DNA of 64,000 bases, from contig JAVHVH010000129.1 in NCBI GenBank assembly GCA_032160665.1, positions 6,621-70,620 of the forward strand, in the 5' to 3' direction. This document shows positions 21,087 to 46,259 of this stretch, piece after piece. Below the pieces are notes generated by a model. The model was not told the DNA's origin, made no database searches, and saw nothing but the letters and a program-made list of their open reading frames with translations. The position numbers and the translations under genes were made by a program. This DNA is from Pseudonocardiales bacterium (GTDB lineage: Bacteria > Actinomycetota > Actinomycetes > Mycobacteriales > Jatrophihabitantaceae). The stretch's first letter is position 1; each line of letters starts with the position of its first letter.

Positions 21087-22985
21087 TTGTTGGCGTCGAC
21101 TGCGTCCGATGCGGTGGTGCAAGGGCTCCTCGCCGCGGCCCCGCTCGCACTGCTTGCGGTCGATGACGACGGCACGATCCTCTTCGCCAACGATTACACC
21201 GAACAACTCTTCGGCTGGCCGCGAGCCGAGCTGGTGGGTCAGCCGGTCGAGTGCCTCGTTCCGGATGGAGTGGTGGGGCGGCACATCGAATTGCGCCGCG
21301 GCCACGAGCCCGCCGCGGCCGCCCGATCGTCTGAGGCGGGGCCGGGGCTCTGCGGCCGCCGCCGCGACGGGTCGCTGTTCCCAGCCGAGATCAGCTTGAA
21401 CACCTTCCAGACCGCCGAGGGCATGGTCGTCGCGGTCGCGGTCGGGGACGCCACCGTCTCGCGTCGCCGGGAGTCCCGGTTCCGCGCGCTGCTGGCATCC
21501 GCGCCGGACGCGACGATCGGCGTCGATGCGTCGGGGCGGATCGAGCTGGTCAACGCGCAGGCGGAACGGCTGTTCGGCTGGGCGGCGGCCGAGTTGGTCG
21601 GCGAACCGGTCGAGGTACTCGTCCCGAGCGGAATCCGCGATCGGCTCGTTGAGTACGGCACCAGTTATCGGGCCGACCCGCCGGGGCGCCCAACTGCGTC
21701 GAGCTTGCAGCTGTCGGCGCTGGGCAAGGACGGTGAGATGTTCCCGGCCGAGATCATGTTGAGCGCGGTCCCCGACGAGGGCGGCAAACTCCTGGTGCTC
21801 GCCGCGGTCCGCGACATCCGCGAGCGGATCGAGGTCGATGCCGAACGCCAGCGTCATGCTCTCGAGGCCCAGCGCGGGCAGTCCGATCGACTCGAGAGTC
21901 TCGGTGAACTCGCGGGAGGAGTGGCGCACGACTTCAACAACCTGCTCGGCGTCATCCTGAACTACGTGGTGCTGACCGCCCGCCGGGTCGAGGACCCCGT
22001 CGCGGTGGCCGACCTGGGTGAGATCCGGGCCGCGGCGCAGCGCGGTGCCGCGCTGACGCGCCAACTCCTGACCTTCGCCCGTCGTGATCCAGTGAACCGA
22101 GAGCCCCTCAACGTGGGCACCATCGTGCGCGGCGTGGGCTCCATGCTGGGACGCACGCTGGGCGAGGACATCGACCTGCAGTTGGAGCTCGGCGATACGC
22201 CAGTGATCGCGACGTGTGATCGCAGCCAGCTCGAGCAGATCCTGATGAACCTGGCGATCAACGCTCGGGACGCCATGCCGGCCGGGGGCCGGCTCACCAT
22301 CGCCGCCGGCTACGTCACCGAAGAGGACGGGTTGCACCGGCGCATGGTCCAGGTCAGCGTGAGCGATACCGGCACTGGTATGGCCGCGGACGTCATCGCC
22401 CGGGCCTTCGAACCGTTCTTCTCGACCAAGGCGCGTGGGCGGGGCACCGGTCTGGGTCTCGCGACCGTGTACGGGATCGTGCGCCAGAACGAGGGAGACG
22501 TGCACATCCGTTCTGTCGTGGACGAGGGGACCACCGTCCGGGTGCGGTTGCCCGGTGCCGGTGTGGTCACTGATGCCGCCCGCGATGAGCTGGCCAAGGC
22601 CGTGGAGTTCCCGGCCCCGCACGTGCACGCCCGGGGCCACGAGCGGATCTTGTTGGTGGAGGACGAGGCCGCATTGCGCGTGGGCACGTCGCGTCTGCTC
22701 GCGGAGTCGGGCTACGACGTGGTCGTCGCGGTGGACGGCGTCGAGGCCCTCGAGGTCTTCGACCTCGACCCGGGCTCGTTCGATCTGGTCCTGACCGACG
22801 TGGCCATGCCGCGCATGCCCGGTGATGAGCTCGCTCGGCAACTGAAGGCCCGTTCCTCCGGTGTGCCCGTCATCATGATGACGGGGTACGACACCGGCAC
22901 CGCGCCGCGCAGCGGGCAAGTGCTGGCCAAGCCCGTGGGCGAGAAGAAGCTCCTGGAAACCATTCGGGACGTTCTCGATGACTGA
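21087..22985 (+). CDS. Hybrid sensor histidine kinase: PAS-PAS-HisKA-HATPase-REC (CckA-like)
   Basis: Two PAS repeats, H-box GGVAHDFNNLL, NLAINARDAM, DTGTGM, GTGLGL, C-terminal receiver (LVEDE, LTDVAMP, KP). Confidence 0.93.
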   Translation: MLASTASDAVVQGLLAAAPLALLAVDDDGTILFANDYTEQLFGWPRAELVGQPVECLVPDGVVGRHIELRRGHEPAAAARSSEAGPGLCGRRRDGSLFPAEISLNTFQTAEGMVVAVAVGDATVSRRRESRFRALLASAPDATIGVDASGRIELVNAQAERLFGWAAAELVGEPVEVLVPSGIRDRLVEYGTSYRADPPGRPTASSLQLSALGKDGEMFPAEIMLSAVPDEGGKLLVLAAVRDIRERIEVDAERQRHALEAQRGQSDRLESLGELAGGVAHDFNNLLGVILNYVVLTARRVEDPVAVADLGEIRAAAQRGAALTRQLLTFARRDPVNREPLNVGTIVRGVGSMLGRTLGEDIDLQLELGDTPVIATCDRSQLEQILMNLAINARDAMPAGGRLTIAAGYVTEEDGLHRRMVQVSVSDTGTGMAADVIARAFEPFFSTKARGRGTGLGLATVYGIVRQNEGDVHIRSVVDEGTTVRVRLPGAGVVTDAARDELAKAVEFPAPHVHARGHERILLVEDEAALRVGTSRLLAESGYDVVVAVDGVEALEVFDLDPGSFDLVLTDVAMPRMPGDELARQLKARSSGVPVIMMTGYDTGTAPRSGQVLAKPVGEKKLLETIRDVLDD

Positions 22986-23649
22986 GCAGGTCCGGGATCG
23001 GATCGGCGTCCTGATCATCGACGACCACCGGATGTTCGCGGACAGCCTGGCGCGGCTGCTCGCCGACGAGGACGACATGGCGGTGCTCGGGATCGCGTCC
23101 GACGGCGACGAGGGCGTCCGGCTGGCCGTCGCGCTCGATCCGCAGGTCGTACTCGTCGACTACCGCATGCCGCTCCAGGACGGCATCGCCGTAGCGACCA
23201 ATATCAAGTCACGCGTACCGGACGCCATGATCGTGATGCTGACCGGCATGGCGGATGACAAGGTGCTGCTCGCGGCACTGGAAGCCGGCTGCTCGGGCTA
23301 CCTCACGAAGGACCGAGCCGCGAGCGAGGTCGCCAACGCCGTGCGCGTGGCGGCGGCGGGGGAGGCGCTCGTGTCGTCGCGCGACCTGGCCATCCTGCTG
23401 TCGAGGTTCACCCGCAACCACCACTCGGTCGGCAACGATTTGACCGACCGGGAACGCCAGATCCTGGTGCTCCTCTCGCGCGGGATGGCCAACCGGGCGA
23501 TCGCCGAAGATCTGCATTTGAGCATCAACACCGTCCGCAATTACGTGCAGGCCATCCTGATCAAGCTCGACGCCCATTCCAAACTCGAAGCCGTGGCGAC
23601 CGGGGTTCGGGAAGGCGTCATCGAATATCCGTCCGGGCTGGACGGCTGA
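22978..23649 (+). CDS. NarL/LuxR family response regulator
   Basis: LIIDDH, LVDYRMP, LTK, then LTDRERQIL...NRAIAEDLHLSINTV HTH; overlaps the kinase stop. Confidence 0.93.
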   Translation: MTEQVRDRIGVLIIDDHRMFADSLARLLADEDDMAVLGIASDGDEGVRLAVALDPQVVLVDYRMPLQDGIAVATNIKSRVPDAMIVMLTGMADDKVLLAALEAGCSGYLTKDRAASEVANAVRVAAAGEALVSSRDLAILLSRFTRNHHSVGNDLTDRERQILVLLSRGMANRAIAEDLHLSINTVRNYVQAILIKLDAHSKLEAVATGVREGVIEYPSGLDG

Positions 23650-23764
23650 CGTATTAGCGTCGTCCACTAATGCAGATGCACTATGCCGGACGATGCAGAT
23701 GATGGGGCCAATTATGGTGTCGACTGCTCTGCGCGGAGGTGCCCGCGCCACCTAGTGTCTTACT

Positions 23765-23911
23765 CAAGGCGCTACCTTCCACAGCCCCCGCGAAGGGCGC
23801 GCCGAGCAGTTTCTCGTTAGTGCAAGCCGGTAACACCCCCGCCGCCGGCCGACCACCTACCGAGAGACAACGGAATTAGCCCCTCTTGCGATCTGCAAGT
23901 GGGGCTTTTCC
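23765..23911 (+). ncRNA. Candidate small RNA: two hairpins with CCCCCGC loops plus an intrinsic terminator
   Basis: CCTTC/GAAGG stem (loop CACAGCCCCCGC), GCCGG/CCGGC stem (loop TAACACCCCCGCCG), terminator at 23878-23911, TAGTGT -10-like hexamer at 23753. Confidence 0.5.
23878..23911 (+). terminator. Intrinsic terminator
   Basis: AGCCCC-t-CTTGC-gatct-GCAAG-t-GGGGCT followed by TTTCC. Confidence 0.7.
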
Positions 23912-23927
23912 TTGTGCCGGCCCAACT

Positions 23928-23992
23928 GCCCGGGCCCACCCGACTAAATGCCCGGGTCGGCCCGACCAAATACCCGGGCCCTTTGCCCGGAT
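23928..23992. repeat. Imperfect direct repeats with 22-bp period
   Basis: gcccgggcccacccgactaaat / gcccgggtcggcccgaccaaat / acccgggccc... Confidence 0.65.
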
Positions 23993-24134
23993 GCGCCTAG
24001 CTCAGTATCCGGAGGGCCATTTACCCCAGCTAACACGATGCGCATTGCTCATGTACTCAGCGTCCTTTCCGGGGAGTATTTCCATTGGCTAGATAAGCCG
24101 ATACAAATACGCGTCGAGAGGCCGGTGTTACGTC

Positions 24135-24731
24135 ATGTCGACACCTTTCAATTCCCAGATTCTCCCGTCCCGCCCGGTCCGCCTGCGTCCCTGGCTGCTT
24201 CCCGGCCGCCGGCTGCTGTCCGCCCTCACCGCGCTGGCCGCGGCAGCGGCCCTGCTGGTCGCTCCGCAGTTGACCACGCCGGCTTCGGCGATCACCTACG
24301 ACAGCGTCACCGCGCAGACGTTCGCCAAGCGGATGCTGACCCTCATGAACACCGAGCGGCACAACAACGGCCGCCCCTACCTGCAGATGAACTACAAGCT
24401 CGTCCTCTCCGCCCACCGGCACAACCTGACCATGGCCGGGGCCAACGTCATGTCGCACCAGTTGGCCGGCGAGGCCTTCTTCGCCACCCGCATCAGCCGG
24501 GCTGGATACGCCTGGCGCATGGCCGGCGAGAACGTCGGCTGGAACTCGGAGATGACCACGACCGGCCTGCTCTCCTTGCAGAAGGAGATGTTCAACGAGC
24601 GGCTCCCGGGCGAGATCGGGCACCGGCAGAACATCCTCAATCGCAACTTCAAGAACGTCGGGATCGACGTCTACTTCGACCTGCGACACCACAAAGTCTG
24701 GTTCACCCAGGACTTCGGCCAGCCTGCATGA
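24135..24731 (+). CDS. Secreted CAP (SCP/CRISP/PR-1) domain protein
   Basis: Signal peptide ending TPASA, MLTLMNTERH, AHRHNLTM, GENVG, GHRQNIL, WFTQDFG. Confidence 0.9.
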   Translation: MSTPFNSQILPSRPVRLRPWLLPGRRLLSALTALAAAAALLVAPQLTTPASAITYDSVTAQTFAKRMLTLMNTERHNNGRPYLQMNYKLVLSAHRHNLTMAGANVMSHQLAGEAFFATRISRAGYAWRMAGENVGWNSEMTTTGLLSLQKEMFNERLPGEIGHRQNILNRNFKNVGIDVYFDLRHHKVWFTQDFGQPA

Positions 24732-45216: not shown

Positions 45217-46259
45217 GGACGGAATTCTTTCCGCTGCGGGTTGCGGCGGTCGAGCCGCTCACCGACGACTCCGCCGCCGTCACGTTCGACGTCCCCGACG
45301 AGTTGAGGACGACGTTCGCCTTCGCGCCCGGCCAGTCGATGACGGTCCGACGAGGCGGCGAGCGGCGGTCCTACTCGATCTGCGCACCCGTCGGCCGGGC
45401 GCCACGGATCGGCGTGCGCGAGGTCGTCGGCGGCGCGGTCTCGGGATGGCTCGTGCGCGAGCTGAGGGCGGGCGACGTGGTCGACGTCCAGGCTCCGACC
45501 GGGACGTTCACGCCCGACCTGACCACCGCCGGTCGGCACGTCCTCATCGCGGCCGGCTCGGGCATCACGCCGATGATCTCGATCGCGGCGTCCCTCCTGG
45601 CGGCCTCCGCAGACGCGACCGTCACGCTCATCTACGGCAACCGCCGCAGCGACTCGGTGATGTTCGCCGACGACGTCGCCGACCTCAAGGACGCCCATCC
45701 GGCGCGGATGCGGATCGTGCACGTGCTCTCCCGCGAAGCACAGGAGGTCGAGCTGTTCACTGGGCGCCTTGATGCCGGCCGGCTGAGTGCCCTGCTGCCG
45801 GCCACCGTCGAGGTCGCGGGCGTCGACCACTGGTGGCTGTGCGGGCCGTTCGGCATGGTCACCGACGCCATCGACGTCCTGACCGAATTCGGGGTCGACC
45901 GGGCGCGGATCCACCGGGAGCTGTTCTACGTCGAGGCCGCGCCGCCGGCCGAAGTGCAGCACGTCGATGCACCGGTGGGGCCCGGTGCCGAGGTGACGGT
46001 GGTTCTCGACGGTCGCACGAGCGTCGTCACGATCCCGCCCGATACTCCCGTGCTCGACGGTGCCCAGCGCTCTCGGCCCGATCTCCCGTTCGCGTGCAAG
46101 GGCGGCGTCTGCGGCACGTGCCGAGCACGGGTGACCAGCGGAGAGGTCCGGATGCGGCGCAACTACGCGCTGGAGCCGGCCGAGGTCGACGCCGGCTACG
46201 TGCTGACCTGCCAGTCGATACCGGTGTCGGATCGGGTGACGGTCGACTACGACGTATGA
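45213..46259 (+). CDS. paaE: PaaE reductase (FAD/NAD plus 2Fe-2S)
   Basis: RSYSIC, AAGSGITP, LCGP, ACKGGVCGTC, VLTCQ. Confidence 0.95.
   Translation: MRTEFFPLRVAAVEPLTDDSAAVTFDVPDELRTTFAFAPGQSMTVRRGGERRSYSICAPVGRAPRIGVREVVGGAVSGWLVRELRAGDVVDVQAPTGTFTPDLTTAGRHVLIAAGSGITPMISIAASLLAASADATVTLIYGNRRSDSVMFADDVADLKDAHPARMRIVHVLSREAQEVELFTGRLDAGRLSALLPATVEVAGVDHWWLCGPFGMVTDAIDVLTEFGVDRARIHRELFYVEAAPPAEVQHVDAPVGPGAEVTVVLDGRTSVVTIPPDTPVLDGAQRSRPDLPFACKGGVCGTCRARVTSGEVRMRRNYALEPAEVDAGYVLTCQSIPVSDRVTVDYDV

What the first reader, a model, noticed from the sequence alone, without database searches (positions are those of the whole stretch)
23765..23911. Candidate sRNA with twin CCCCCGC loops inside a two-component/CAP island
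Seen: hairpin 1 (CCTTC 23775-79 / GAAGG 23792-96) and hairpin 2 (GCCGG 23826-30 / CCGGC 23845-49, inside a longer TCTCG/CGAGA stem). Both expose the same CCCCCGC heptamer in their loops. An intrinsic terminator follows at 23878-23911, a TAGTGT -10-like hexamer precedes at 23753, and no convincing ORF spans the region. Known: actinobacterial 6C/B11 and F6 sRNAs use C-rich loops to pair with G-rich targets. Inference: a ~145-nt trans-acting sRNA. As I recall those RNAs this does not look like either, and it may be the output of the adjacent kinase/regulator pair.
Basis: partly seen in the sequence, partly recalled or inferred. Interest (0 to 1): 0.7.

Follow-up and report, generated by a model that had tools for sequence, protein, structure and literature searches.

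The report
Regulator-linked small RNA with C-rich loops
The stretch is very probably a real gene for a small regulatory RNA of about 150 bases, of a family not yet catalogued; it always sits just after one kind of signalling regulator gene in uncultured soil actinobacteria, and it most likely silences messenger RNAs by pairing its cytosine-rich loops with guanine-rich sites.

Summary
Window 23765-23911 (+) folds into three hairpins (MFE -65.6 kcal/mol, z -5.3). CCCCCGC sits in both apical loops and the last hairpin is an intrinsic terminator. No Rfam 15 family matches, 6C included.

The host is a Jatrophihabitans MAG (69% GC). Among 142 genomes of its family only one other holds the element. 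Metagenome contigs that encode orthologues of the upstream NarL-type response regulator (69-73% identical) gave six further lineages, one of them cut off by the end of its contig. The complete ones share the same design, directly 3' of that regulator gene:
- a GTGCA-N2-TGCAC palindrome, 83-84 nt before the -10 in five lineages;
- a TAnnnT -10;
- two or three hairpins with C-rich loops (CCCCCGC in most);
- a terminator.

The 22-nt top of hairpin 2 is identical across lineages whose flanking spacer is under 50% identical. The stems covary. Indels break every ORF.

Best reading: a new sRNA family of the 6C/RsaE kind, with a C-rich seed, in a genome without Hfq or CsrA. It is probably transcribed under control of the adjacent regulator.

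The genome also holds a second, family-wide RNA with three GGUGAAUCCCCCGCUCACC hairpins.

The parts
21087..22985 (+). Hybrid sensor kinase (two PAS domains, HisKA, HATPase_c, C-terminal receiver). It overlaps the regulator gene by 8 nt, so the two form an operon.
   Evidence: Pfam; NCBIfam gives only generic hybrid-kinase matches below their cut-offs. The same gene precedes the regulator in L195-198.
22978..23649 (+). NarL/FixJ-type response regulator (receiver domain plus GerE/LuxR helix-turn-helix). It is the candidate activator of the sRNA gene.
   Evidence: Pfam; NCBIfam. Orthologues 69-73% identical are each followed by a homologous sRNA.
23670..23681 (.). ATGCAGATGCAC, one mismatch from the palindrome GTGCA-N2-TGCAC. 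It is the candidate upstream activating site and lies 83 nt before the -10.
   Evidence: The relatives have GTGCATATGCAC (L199), GTGCAAATGCAC (L200), GTGCGTTTGCAC (L258) and GTGCAGATGCAC (L201). The spacing to the -10 is 83-84 nt in five lineages and 58 nt in L201.
23693..23701 (.). Second copy of ATGCAGATG, 23 nt after the first. It is a degenerate second site, weakly conserved in relatives.
   Evidence: The 9-mer occurs only 26 times in the whole genome.
23753..23758 (+). TAGTGT, the -10 element (TAnnnT). The inferred transcription start is about 23764-23766.
   Evidence: T, A and the final T are kept while the middle varies: TAGAGT (G030, L199, L258), TATCGT (L200), TAATGT (L256), TAGACT (L201), TAGCGT (L202). 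The distance to hairpin 1 is constant. No -35 consensus is present.
23765..23911 (+). The sRNA proper, about 147 nt, with three hairpins.
23768..23803 (+). Hairpin 1 (GGCGC/GCGCC and CCUUC/GAAGG), with loop CACAGCCCCCGC at 23780-91.
   Evidence: Fold. Four pairs change on both sides across the five aligned sequences. The loop keeps YCCC(C)GC in L199 and L200.
23809..23868 (+). Hairpin 2: a long interrupted stem topped by CCGG-UAACACCCCCGCCG-CCGG (23827-48), the candidate main seed.
   Evidence: Fold. The top is 22/22 identical in L199 and L200, while the lower stem is 5-11 of 17-20 identical and still pairs.
23872..23911 (+). Intrinsic terminator, extended by a GGAA/UUCC clamp, with U-tract UUUUCCUU.
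   Evidence: Two pairs change on both sides (CUUGC/GCAAG to CUCGCG/CGCGAG in L199 and to CCAGC/GCCGG in L200). It also ends the kinase-regulator operon, because no other terminator follows 23649.
23917..23990 (.). Four 17-nt direct repeats (CCCGAC.AAAT.CCCGG), starts spaced 22, 22 and 13 nt, lying after the terminator. Function unknown; possibly the operator region of the CAP gene.
   Evidence: Partly conserved in L199 (GCCCGAATGCCCGGG, twice) and L200.
24135..24731 (+). Secreted CAP/YkwD-domain protein. It is the downstream neighbour in three lineages, but not in L201 or L202.
   Evidence: Pfam; synteny.

Best explanation
Window 23765-23911 (+) is the gene of a trans-acting small RNA of about 147 nt. 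It belongs to a family that is not in Rfam. The family is confined, as far as searched, to some Jatrophihabitans and related uncultured actinobacteria.

Shown: the unit is a conserved, strand-specific, non-coding structure. It has a TAnnnT -10 element, three hairpins and an intrinsic terminator, and it lies directly 3' of one clade of NarL-type response-regulator genes.

Inferred mechanism: the apical loops, above all the invariant UAACACCCCCGCCG of hairpin 2, serve as seeds. They pair with rare G-rich stretches (GCGGGGG-like) in or near the ribosome-binding sites of target mRNAs. This blocks translation or destabilises the mRNA without a chaperone, as shown for 6C in mycobacteria and for RsaE/RoxS in Firmicutes.

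Inferred regulation: the adjacent kinase/regulator pair activates the sRNA promoter through the GTGCA-N2-TGCAC palindrome 83-84 nt upstream of the -10. The sRNA would then be a direct post-transcriptional output of that signalling system. Read-through from the regulator operon may add a 3'-UTR-derived pool of the same RNA.
For: Structure: z -5.3. The homologues fold into hairpins of the same kind, three of them in L199, L200, L201 and L256 (z -2.5 to -6.6).

Homologues: covariance-model matches range from E 1e-41 to about 5e-4, each directly 3' of a regulator orthologue, the same place as in the window. They are L195-198, L199 (the same element recurs in L203, L205, L206 and L207), L200, L256, L201 and L202. 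L258 adds the palindrome, the -10 and the start of hairpin 1 before its contig ends.

Covariation on 5 sequences: 94% of cells are paired. Seven pairs change on both sides, against 2.4 +/- 1.2 in shuffles (0 of 500 reach 7) and 1-2 in slid controls.

Strand: there are 19 G-U cells, so 94.1% of cells pair on the + strand against 89.4% on the - strand, and the U-tract is on the + strand only. Within the species, the two substitutions inside the RNA in L195 both turn a Watson-Crick pair into G-U.

Selection on the loop: the top of hairpin 2 is 22/22 identical in L199 and L200, where the promoter spacer is 32-34 of 71. Apical loops carry CCCCCGC in the window, G030, L199, L200, L256, L201 and L202.

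Non-coding: frame-breaking indels.

Autonomous gene: the -10 is conserved. In L256 the whole unit of operator, promoter and sRNA is duplicated in tandem. In L201 the RNA faces a convergent csp gene, so it cannot be the leader of a downstream gene.

Link to the regulator: no element follows regulator homologues of 68% identity or less. The distance from palindrome to -10 is fixed at 83-84 nt in five lineages.

Mechanism by analogy: the 6C loops bind G-rich ribosome-binding sites without a chaperone (PMC6486639). No Hfq or CsrA was found in this 97%-complete genome. G5 runs are 7.6 times depleted, so a C-rich seed would be selective.
Against: There is no terminator between the regulator's stop codon (23649) and the element. 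Part or all of the RNA could therefore arise as the operon's 3' UTR.

There is no recognisable -35 element.

No target was identified. A crude genome scan for G-rich sites near start codons was noisy, and the 8-nt complementarity to the CAP ribosome-binding region is not kept in the closest relative.

The covariation rests on few sequences, three of them nearly identical, in an alignment fitted to the model's structure.

Binding of the regulator to the palindrome is pure inference. The palindrome has no second copy in the window at up to one mismatch.
Confidence: 0.6

Rival explanations
1. The element is only the structured 3' UTR and terminator region of the kinase-regulator operon. It stabilises or terminates that mRNA and has no promoter of its own and no trans function.
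For: There is no terminator between the regulator's stop codon at 23649 and the hairpin at 23878-23911, so operon transcripts must run through the element. The element always lies 3' of the regulator gene.
Against: A TAnnnT hexamer is kept at a fixed distance before hairpin 1 in every lineage, although its middle bases vary. A palindrome is kept 83-84 nt upstream of it. In L256 the unit, including its upstream region, is duplicated without the regulator gene. A 22-nt loop hairpin that never varies is not expected of a mere stabiliser.
Confidence: 0.15
2. The element is a decoy or sponge RNA. Its C-rich hairpins titrate an unknown RNA-binding protein or a G-rich RNA, as the Rsm/Csr sRNAs do under the NarL-type regulator GacA, rather than pairing with many mRNAs.
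For: The layout is the same as for GacA: a NarL-family regulator, a palindromic upstream site and an sRNA with a repeated loop motif (PMC2375449). The genome also holds a family-wide RNA with 3-4 nearly invariant hairpins GGUGAAUCCCCCGCUCACC, in which even the stems are fixed. That pattern is typical of protein-binding modules. The top of hairpin 2 of the window RNA resembles one such module.
Against: No CsrA homologue was found in the genome, and no candidate partner protein is known. The window RNA has only two C-rich loops, and their flanks differ. The documented precedent for C-rich loops in this phylum is direct pairing with mRNA (PMC6486639).
Confidence: 0.12
3. The element is a cis-acting leader or attenuator of the downstream CAP gene. 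Transcription starts at 23765, and the hairpin at 23878-23911 is a conditional terminator.
For: The CAP gene follows on the same strand in three lineages: the window and G030, L199, and L200.
Against: L201 has a convergent csp gene downstream, L202 has unrelated small ORFs, and L256 has a second copy of the sRNA unit. The terminator lies 224 nt before the start codon, and conserved promoter-like blocks lie between them (GATGCGCAT...TCATGT). No alternative antiterminator fold turned up in the MFE and centroid predictions, though none was specifically searched for.
Confidence: 0.06
4. The structure is a chance product of GC-rich intergenic DNA, or the repeats act at the DNA level as protein-binding sites.
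For: GC-rich sequence folds readily. The first comparison, with G030, was uninformative because the whole intergenic region is about 93% identical.
Against: z -5.3 against dinucleotide shuffles. Stems covary, and G-U pairs are specific to one strand. The loop is invariant against diverged flanks in lineages whose regulators are only 72% identical.
Confidence: 0.03

Closest known systems
6C / B11 sRNA of Actinobacteria (Rfam RF01066; PMC6486639)
   Same: It is a short sRNA of a high-GC Gram-positive with C-rich apical loops and its own terminator. The proposed mechanism is the same: chaperone-independent pairing of loops with G-rich ribosome-binding regions. G-runs are depleted in the genome, as was reported for M. 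smegmatis.
   Different: The 6C covariance model gives no match. The loops are (A/C)CCCCCGC(C), with five C and then G-C, whereas 6C loop L3 is UCCUCCCCCCCU. The RNA is about 147 nt with three hairpins, against a 75-position model. It occurs in only 2 of 142 genomes of its family rather than across the phylum. It is tied to a response-regulator gene.
RsaE/RoxS of Firmicutes (PMC4409812)
   Same: It is an sRNA with several C-rich regions that pair with G-rich Shine-Dalgarno sequences. Its transcription is activated by a two-component regulator (ResD/SrrA) through a conserved site around -65.
   Different: There is no sequence or Rfam relationship. ResD is an OmpR-type regulator, not a NarL-type one, and roxS is not adjacent to resDE. 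Here the regulator gene and the sRNA gene are physically linked.
GacS/GacA (UvrY) with RsmX/Y/Z or CsrB (PMC2375449)
   Same: A NarL/FixJ-family regulator has sRNA genes as its direct targets. Each is preceded by a palindromic upstream activating sequence, and the sRNAs carry a repeated motif in several hairpin loops.
   Different: The Rsm/Csr RNAs expose GGA and sequester CsrA/RsmA. Here the motif is CCCCCGC, and the genome has no CsrA. The regulator scores 116 bits against the UvrY/GacA model, whose cut-off is 280, so it is not an orthologue.
The family-wide C-rich RNA of Jatrophihabitantaceae found here (G000:C99:12649-12781, minus strand)
   Same: It has the same CCCCCGC core in its hairpin loops. 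Its module CCGGUGAAUCCCCCGCUCACCGG resembles the top of the window's hairpin 2 (CCGGUAACACCCCCGCCGCCGG) and the hairpins of L202. It has no Rfam match.
   Different: It has three or four nearly identical modules. It is present in 23 of 30 genomes of the genus and in 12 of 42 genera. It is not next to a regulator gene. Model R2 does not match it at E<=0.01.

Membership tests
6C RNA (Rfam RF01066) | A match to the family covariance model at or above the gathering score (47 bits) | tested here: not met
   There is no Rfam match at gathering score in the 64-kb window. No 6C match appears at E<=10 in 23550-24200 or at E<=1 in L199-L202.
6C RNA (Rfam RF01066) | Two hairpins whose loops each carry six conserved cytosines (PMC6486639; L3 = UCCUCCCCCCCU) | tested here: not met
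   Both window loops have five C followed by G-C. Only L256 has a run of six.
6C RNA (Rfam RF01066) | Conservation across high-GC Gram-positives | tested here: not met
   By BLAST and two covariance models it was found in 2 of 142 genomes of the family. The other members come only from metagenome contigs.
C-rich-loop base-pairing sRNAs (functional class: 6C, RsaE/RoxS) | Conserved C-rich stretches exposed in hairpin loops | tested here: met
   Folds of six lineages. The invariant 22-nt loop hairpin.
C-rich-loop base-pairing sRNAs (functional class: 6C, RsaE/RoxS) | A discrete transcript with its own start and terminator | tested here: inconclusive
   A conserved -10 and a covarying terminator are present. 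No RNA data could be consulted.
C-rich-loop base-pairing sRNAs (functional class: 6C, RsaE/RoxS) | Pairing with G-rich sites of target mRNAs | not testable with these tools
   The crude scan and the test of the CAP ribosome-binding region gave no conserved target. Complete genomes of several carriers, or experiments, are needed.
Intrinsic (Rho-independent) terminator | A GC-rich hairpin directly followed by a U-tract on the transcribed strand | tested here: met
   23878-23906 plus UUUUCCUU. Compensatory changes occur in L199 and L200. The simple scanner reports nothing; I take the reason to be the one-base internal loop in the stem.
Regulator-activated sRNA gene (Gac/Rsm-like or ResD/RoxS-like) | A conserved regulator-binding site upstream of the sRNA promoter | tested here: inconclusive
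   The palindrome GTGCA-N2-TGCAC is conserved at 83-84 nt (58 nt in L201) before the -10. Which protein binds it is unknown.
Regulator-activated sRNA gene (Gac/Rsm-like or ResD/RoxS-like) | For Gac/Rsm specifically: GGA loops and a CsrA/RsmA partner | tested here: not met
   The loops are C-rich, not GGA. No CsrA (PF02599) was found in the 97%-complete genome, while the control genomes were positive.

The most novel reading that the evidence does not exclude
The kinase/regulator pair and this RNA form an actinobacterial counterpart of Gac/Rsm. The NarL-type regulator's main direct output would be the sRNA. Its CCCCCGC hairpins, together with the family-wide RNA that carries three or four invariant GGUGAAUCCCCCGCUCACC modules, would not act mRNA by mRNA. 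Instead they would compete for, or titrate, one shared partner: an unknown C-rich-RNA-binding protein or a common G-rich RNA. That would amount to a global post-transcriptional switch in organisms that lack both Hfq and CsrA.
Probability: 0.12. Interest if true: 0.8.

Novelty: new member of a known kind. Interest (0 to 1): 0.5.

Why it matters
Very few sRNAs of Actinobacteria have a known trigger. 6C, the best-studied C-rich-loop RNA, still lacks a clear physiological signal. In this family the sRNA gene is physically tied to a PAS-domain sensor kinase and a NarL-type regulator, and a candidate operator sits at a fixed distance from its promoter. Signal, regulator and RNA output can therefore be tested as one compact module.

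The same CCCCCGC core appears in a second, family-wide multi-hairpin RNA. This suggests a shared target code in these soil bacteria, and a way in which accessory, signal-specific sRNAs could arise from a core one.

The organisms are uncultured, so for now the value lies in a testable model and a new covariance model, not in a proven mechanism.

Tried and rejected
1. Model R1 run with filters off hit about 15 loci next to CAP genes in other genera. These are ilvB leader-peptide attenuators: a leaderless short ORF M-x-K-L-V-L-(V)-I..., a terminator, then a TPP enzyme. They lie on the strand opposite to the CAP gene and are unrelated to the finding.

2. The metagenome scan for CAGCCCCCGCG-N30-60-CACCCCCGCCG gave 107 stretches. 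None resembles the element beyond the pattern itself. The pattern was too strict, because hairpin 1 varies between lineages.

3. The BLAST hit in G027 lies inside a coding region. The weak covariance-model hits in G063, G103, G002, G126 and G096 fall on a tRNA end, ordinary terminators or coding sequence.

4. No element lies downstream of the regulator paralogue in this genome (C86) or of the 65% homologue in G022, nor upstream of the CAP paralogue on C107.

5. The inverted repeat 23723-35 / 23798-810 would imply a start further upstream. By my own reading of the aligned sequences it is not kept in L200, and L199 shows one compensatory and one non-compensatory double change. I dropped it.

6. 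The 8-nt match between hairpin 2 (GUAACACC) and the CAP ribosome-binding region (GGUGUUAC) is lost in G030, and neither L199 nor L200 has it.

7. The genome-wide scan for G-rich sites before start codons is too noisy without gene calls and comparative filtering. I draw no target claim from it.

8. GTGCA-N2-TGCAC-like sites occur 20 times in the genome against about 10 expected. At up to one mismatch the window holds only one other match, at 45717, within the chance expectation of about 2.4. No regulon can be inferred.

9. RF01066 found nothing in the genome itself. The tool's own control matched only C. glutamicum, and below the cut-off, so this says little about whether a canonical 6C is absent.

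Full report
**Observation**

On the + strand, 23765-23911 folds into three hairpins at -65.6 kcal/mol. Shuffles that preserve dinucleotides give -45.6 +/- 3.8, so z is -5.3 and none of 200 shuffles folds as well. The minus strand is weaker, at z -3.4.

CCCCCGC lies in the apical loops of hairpin 1 (23785-91) and hairpin 2 (23836-42). The third hairpin (23878-23906) is followed by UUUUCCUU.

The genome is 69% G+C. Runs of five C or five G are nonetheless 7.6 times rarer than base composition predicts, and CCCCCGC occurs 1157 times on both strands.

The ORFs of 45-51 aa that cross the region are broken by a 2-nt indel in the nearest relative. More distant relatives carry further indels that are not multiples of three.

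**Context**

The flanking genes were identified with Pfam:
- Upstream lies an operon. It encodes a hybrid kinase with PAS, HisKA, HATPase and receiver domains (21087-22985) and a NarL/FixJ-type response regulator (22978-23649).
- Downstream lies a secreted CAP/YkwD-domain protein (24135-24731).

Record titles of related contigs name the closest relative, and so the genus, as Jatrophihabitans; all are MAGs. No terminator separates the regulator's stop codon from the element.

**Not a catalogued RNA**

- Rfam 15 gives nothing at gathering score in the whole window.
- It gives only two chance-level matches at E about 7.5 in 23550-24200. Neither overlaps 23765-23911.
- It gives no relevant match in four homologous loci at E<=1.

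The element is therefore not 6C, F6 or any other family curated in Rfam.

**Finding relatives**

BLAST, and a covariance model built from the window and its one close relative G030 (94% identical), found the element in only 2 of 142 genomes of the family. That pair is uninformative, because the whole intergenic region is about 93% identical.

A strict loop-pair pattern scanned over metagenome contigs returned only chance matches.

The productive route went through the neighbouring gene. I took protein homologues of the regulator and fetched the contigs that encode them. The regulator homologues whose DNA could be read fall into two groups.

Those 69-73% identical to the window's regulator are each followed, 100-180 nt after the stop codon, by a matching RNA:
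- L199: 75 bits, E 3e-16. The same element recurs in L203, L205, L206 and L207, upstream of a CAP orthologue.
- L200: 56 bits, E 7e-12.
- L256: 37 bits with the second model.
- L201: 28 bits.
- L202: 24 bits.
- L258 holds the start of one before its contig ends.

The readable homologues of 68% identity or less have none: L255, G022, the paralogue in this genome, L155, L156 and L158.

**What is conserved**

1. The 22-nt top of hairpin 2, CCGGUAACACCCCCGCCGCCGG, is identical in the window, G030, L199 and L200. In the same sequences the promoter spacer is only 32-34 of 71 identical, and the lower stem of hairpin 2 is 5-11 of 17-20 identical.

2. The stems covary. On the five-sequence alignment 94% of cells pair. 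Seven pairs change on both sides, against 2.4 +/- 1.2 in column shuffles (0 of 500 reach 7) and 1-2 when partners are slid. This alignment was fitted to the model and three of its rows are close, so the evidence is supportive but not decisive.

3. G-U pairs are specific to one strand. There are 19 such cells, so 94.1% of cells pair on the + strand against 89.4% on the other. The two within-species substitutions inside the RNA both turn a Watson-Crick pair into G-U.

4. Each more distant member folds on its own into hairpins of the same kind. L201 and L256 have three. L202 has two clear ones, and a third appears only in its MFE fold. Their loops are again C-rich, and most carry CCCCCGC:
   - L201: CCACAACCCCGG, AAACUCCCCCGCAC and ACACCCCCGU;
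   - L202: AAUUCCCCCGC and AAUCCCCCGC;
   - L256: UCCCCCGC and UCCCCCCGC.

5. A TAnnnT hexamer sits at a constant distance before hairpin 1 in all lineages, and only its middle bases vary: TAGTGT, TAGAGT, TATCGT, TAATGT, TAGACT, TAGCGT.

6. A palindrome GTGCA-N2-TGCAC begins 83-84 nt before that hexamer in the window, G030, L199, L200 and L258, and 58 nt before it in L201. In the window it reads ATGCAGATGCAC. The others read GTGCATATGCAC, GTGCAAATGCAC, GTGCGTTTGCAC and GTGCAGATGCAC.

7. In L256 the whole unit is duplicated in tandem with a period of about 280 nt, its upstream region included.

8. The downstream gene is not constant. It is CAP in three lineages, a convergent csp gene in L201, and other genes in L202.

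**Interpretation**

Points 1-4 show a functional RNA on the + strand whose apical loops are under the strongest constraint.

Points 5-7 argue for a gene with its own regulated promoter. Read-through from the regulator operon would also produce the same sequence as a 3' UTR, so the two sources may coexist.

Point 8, the 224-nt gap and the separate conserved blocks before the CAP start codon together argue against a leader of the CAP gene.

The mechanism I commit to is the one shown experimentally for 6C. There, C-rich loops pair directly with G-rich ribosome-binding regions without a chaperone (PMC6486639). RsaE/RoxS does the same in Firmicutes, and its transcription is driven by the two-component regulator ResD through a conserved upstream site (PMC4409812).

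Three observations fit this reading. Neither Hfq nor CsrA is detectable in the 97%-complete genome, although the controls were positive. G-runs are strongly depleted, so a C5 seed would be selective. The exclusive linkage to one regulator clade, together with the fixed-distance palindrome, makes the adjacent regulator the most economical candidate activator; NarL/GerE-type regulators typically bind inverted repeats as dimers.

None of the following has been shown: expression, the 5' end, any target, or regulator binding.

**Comparison and membership**

The element is not a member of 6C. It fails the covariance model. Its loops have five C followed by G-C rather than six or more C. Its distribution is narrow. 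It works like 6C or RsaE by inference only.

The layout also resembles GacA with the Rsm RNAs: a NarL-type regulator, a palindromic upstream site and a repeated loop motif (PMC2375449). Here, however, the loops are not GGA, there is no CsrA, and the regulator is not a GacA orthologue (116 bits against a cut-off of 280).

I did not test it. It suggests that the design may recur outside Actinobacteria.

**A second RNA with the same loop core**

I scanned this genome for pairs of hairpins with C5 loops. Besides the finding, this recovered G000:C99:12649-12781 on the minus strand. It has three hairpins, each CCGGUGAAUCCCCCGCUCACCGG, and the last one is a terminator.
- It has no Rfam match.
- It lies between an Exo_endo_phos gene and msrA.
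- BLAST finds it in 23 of 30 genomes of the genus and in 12 of 42 genera of the family. Each copy has three or four nearly invariant modules joined by variable linkers.
- In a sample of 401 genomes of the order, clustered copies with no or one mismatch occur only in this family.

The top of the window's hairpin 2 and the hairpins of L202 resemble one such module. The regulator-linked RNA may therefore derive from, or share targets with, this core RNA. Because even the stems of the modules are fixed, this observation also feeds the decoy hypothesis given as the novel case.

The tallies include genomes flagged as unpublished (G105; and G036, G105, G301, G452). No sequence from them is quoted, and no claim about the window element rests on them.

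**False leads**

- The covariance-model hits beside other CAP genes are ilvB leader-peptide attenuators.
- Several weak model hits fall on terminators, a tRNA end or coding sequence.
- One inverted repeat and one complementarity to the CAP ribosome-binding region are not conserved.

**Verdict**

This is a real and conserved sRNA gene that is not catalogued. It is a new member of the known kind of C-rich-loop sRNAs in high-GC Gram-positives. Its distinguishing feature is tight linkage to a PAS-kinase/NarL-regulator pair, with a candidate operator upstream. I put the confidence that it is a functional trans-acting sRNA working through its C-rich loops at about 0.6, and control by the adjacent regulator at about 0.4-0.5. 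Interest is 0.5.

Noticed in passing
L217:2150-2282 (-), that is G000:C99:12649-12781, outside the window: A second candidate sRNA. It has three hairpins, each CCGGUGAAUCCCCCGCUCACCGG, and the last one is a terminator. It has no Rfam match. BLAST finds it in 39 of 142 genomes of the family (23 of 30 in the genus), with 3-4 nearly invariant modules per copy. A GGTGCACAGTTTGCACC palindrome lies about 165 nt upstream.
   Followed up: partly
L134:1140-1242 (-), L131:1049-1133 (-), and 13 further loci in alignment A3: A conserved unit upstream of ilvB (a TPP enzyme), divergent from a CAP paralogue. It consists of a TTGAAC-N17-TAnnGT promoter, a leaderless short ORF of 12-17 codons (M-x-K-L-V-L-(V)-I-x-Q/E-R-V...) and a terminator. 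This is a branched-chain amino-acid leader-peptide attenuator. Rfam has no match for it.
   Followed up: partly
window 23917-23990: Four 17-nt direct repeats (CCGGCCCAACTGCCCGG, CCCGACTAAATGCCCGG, CCCGACCAAATACCCGG, CCGGGCCCTTTGCCCGG), starts spaced 22, 22 and 13 nt, right after the sRNA terminator. They are partly kept in L199 and L200. They may be an operator array or RNA hairpins formed on read-through.
   Followed up: partly
window 23990-24004 and 24037-24051: GATGCGCCTAGCTCA and GATGCGCATTGCTCA lie 47 nt apart. The second block (GATGCGCAT..N..TCATGT) is conserved upstream of the CAP gene in L199 and L200, so it is a candidate CAP promoter or operator.
   Followed up: no
L256:785-1194: The complete sRNA unit (upstream TGCA-rich region, TAATGT -10 and the start of the RNA) recurs about 280 nt downstream with a few substitutions. 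This is a tandem duplication of the sRNA gene, and the contig ends inside the second copy.
   Followed up: partly
L211:1425-1660 (G002:C15): A tRNA gene is followed by a terminator and then by three tandem copies of a unit of about 16 nt (GAGATGCAGACACGAC). This may be the remnant of an integration site.
   Followed up: no
L201:3025-3340 (-): The csp gene convergent with the L201 sRNA has a weak match to the cspA thermoregulator of Rfam (37.8 bits, gathering score 78).
   Followed up: no
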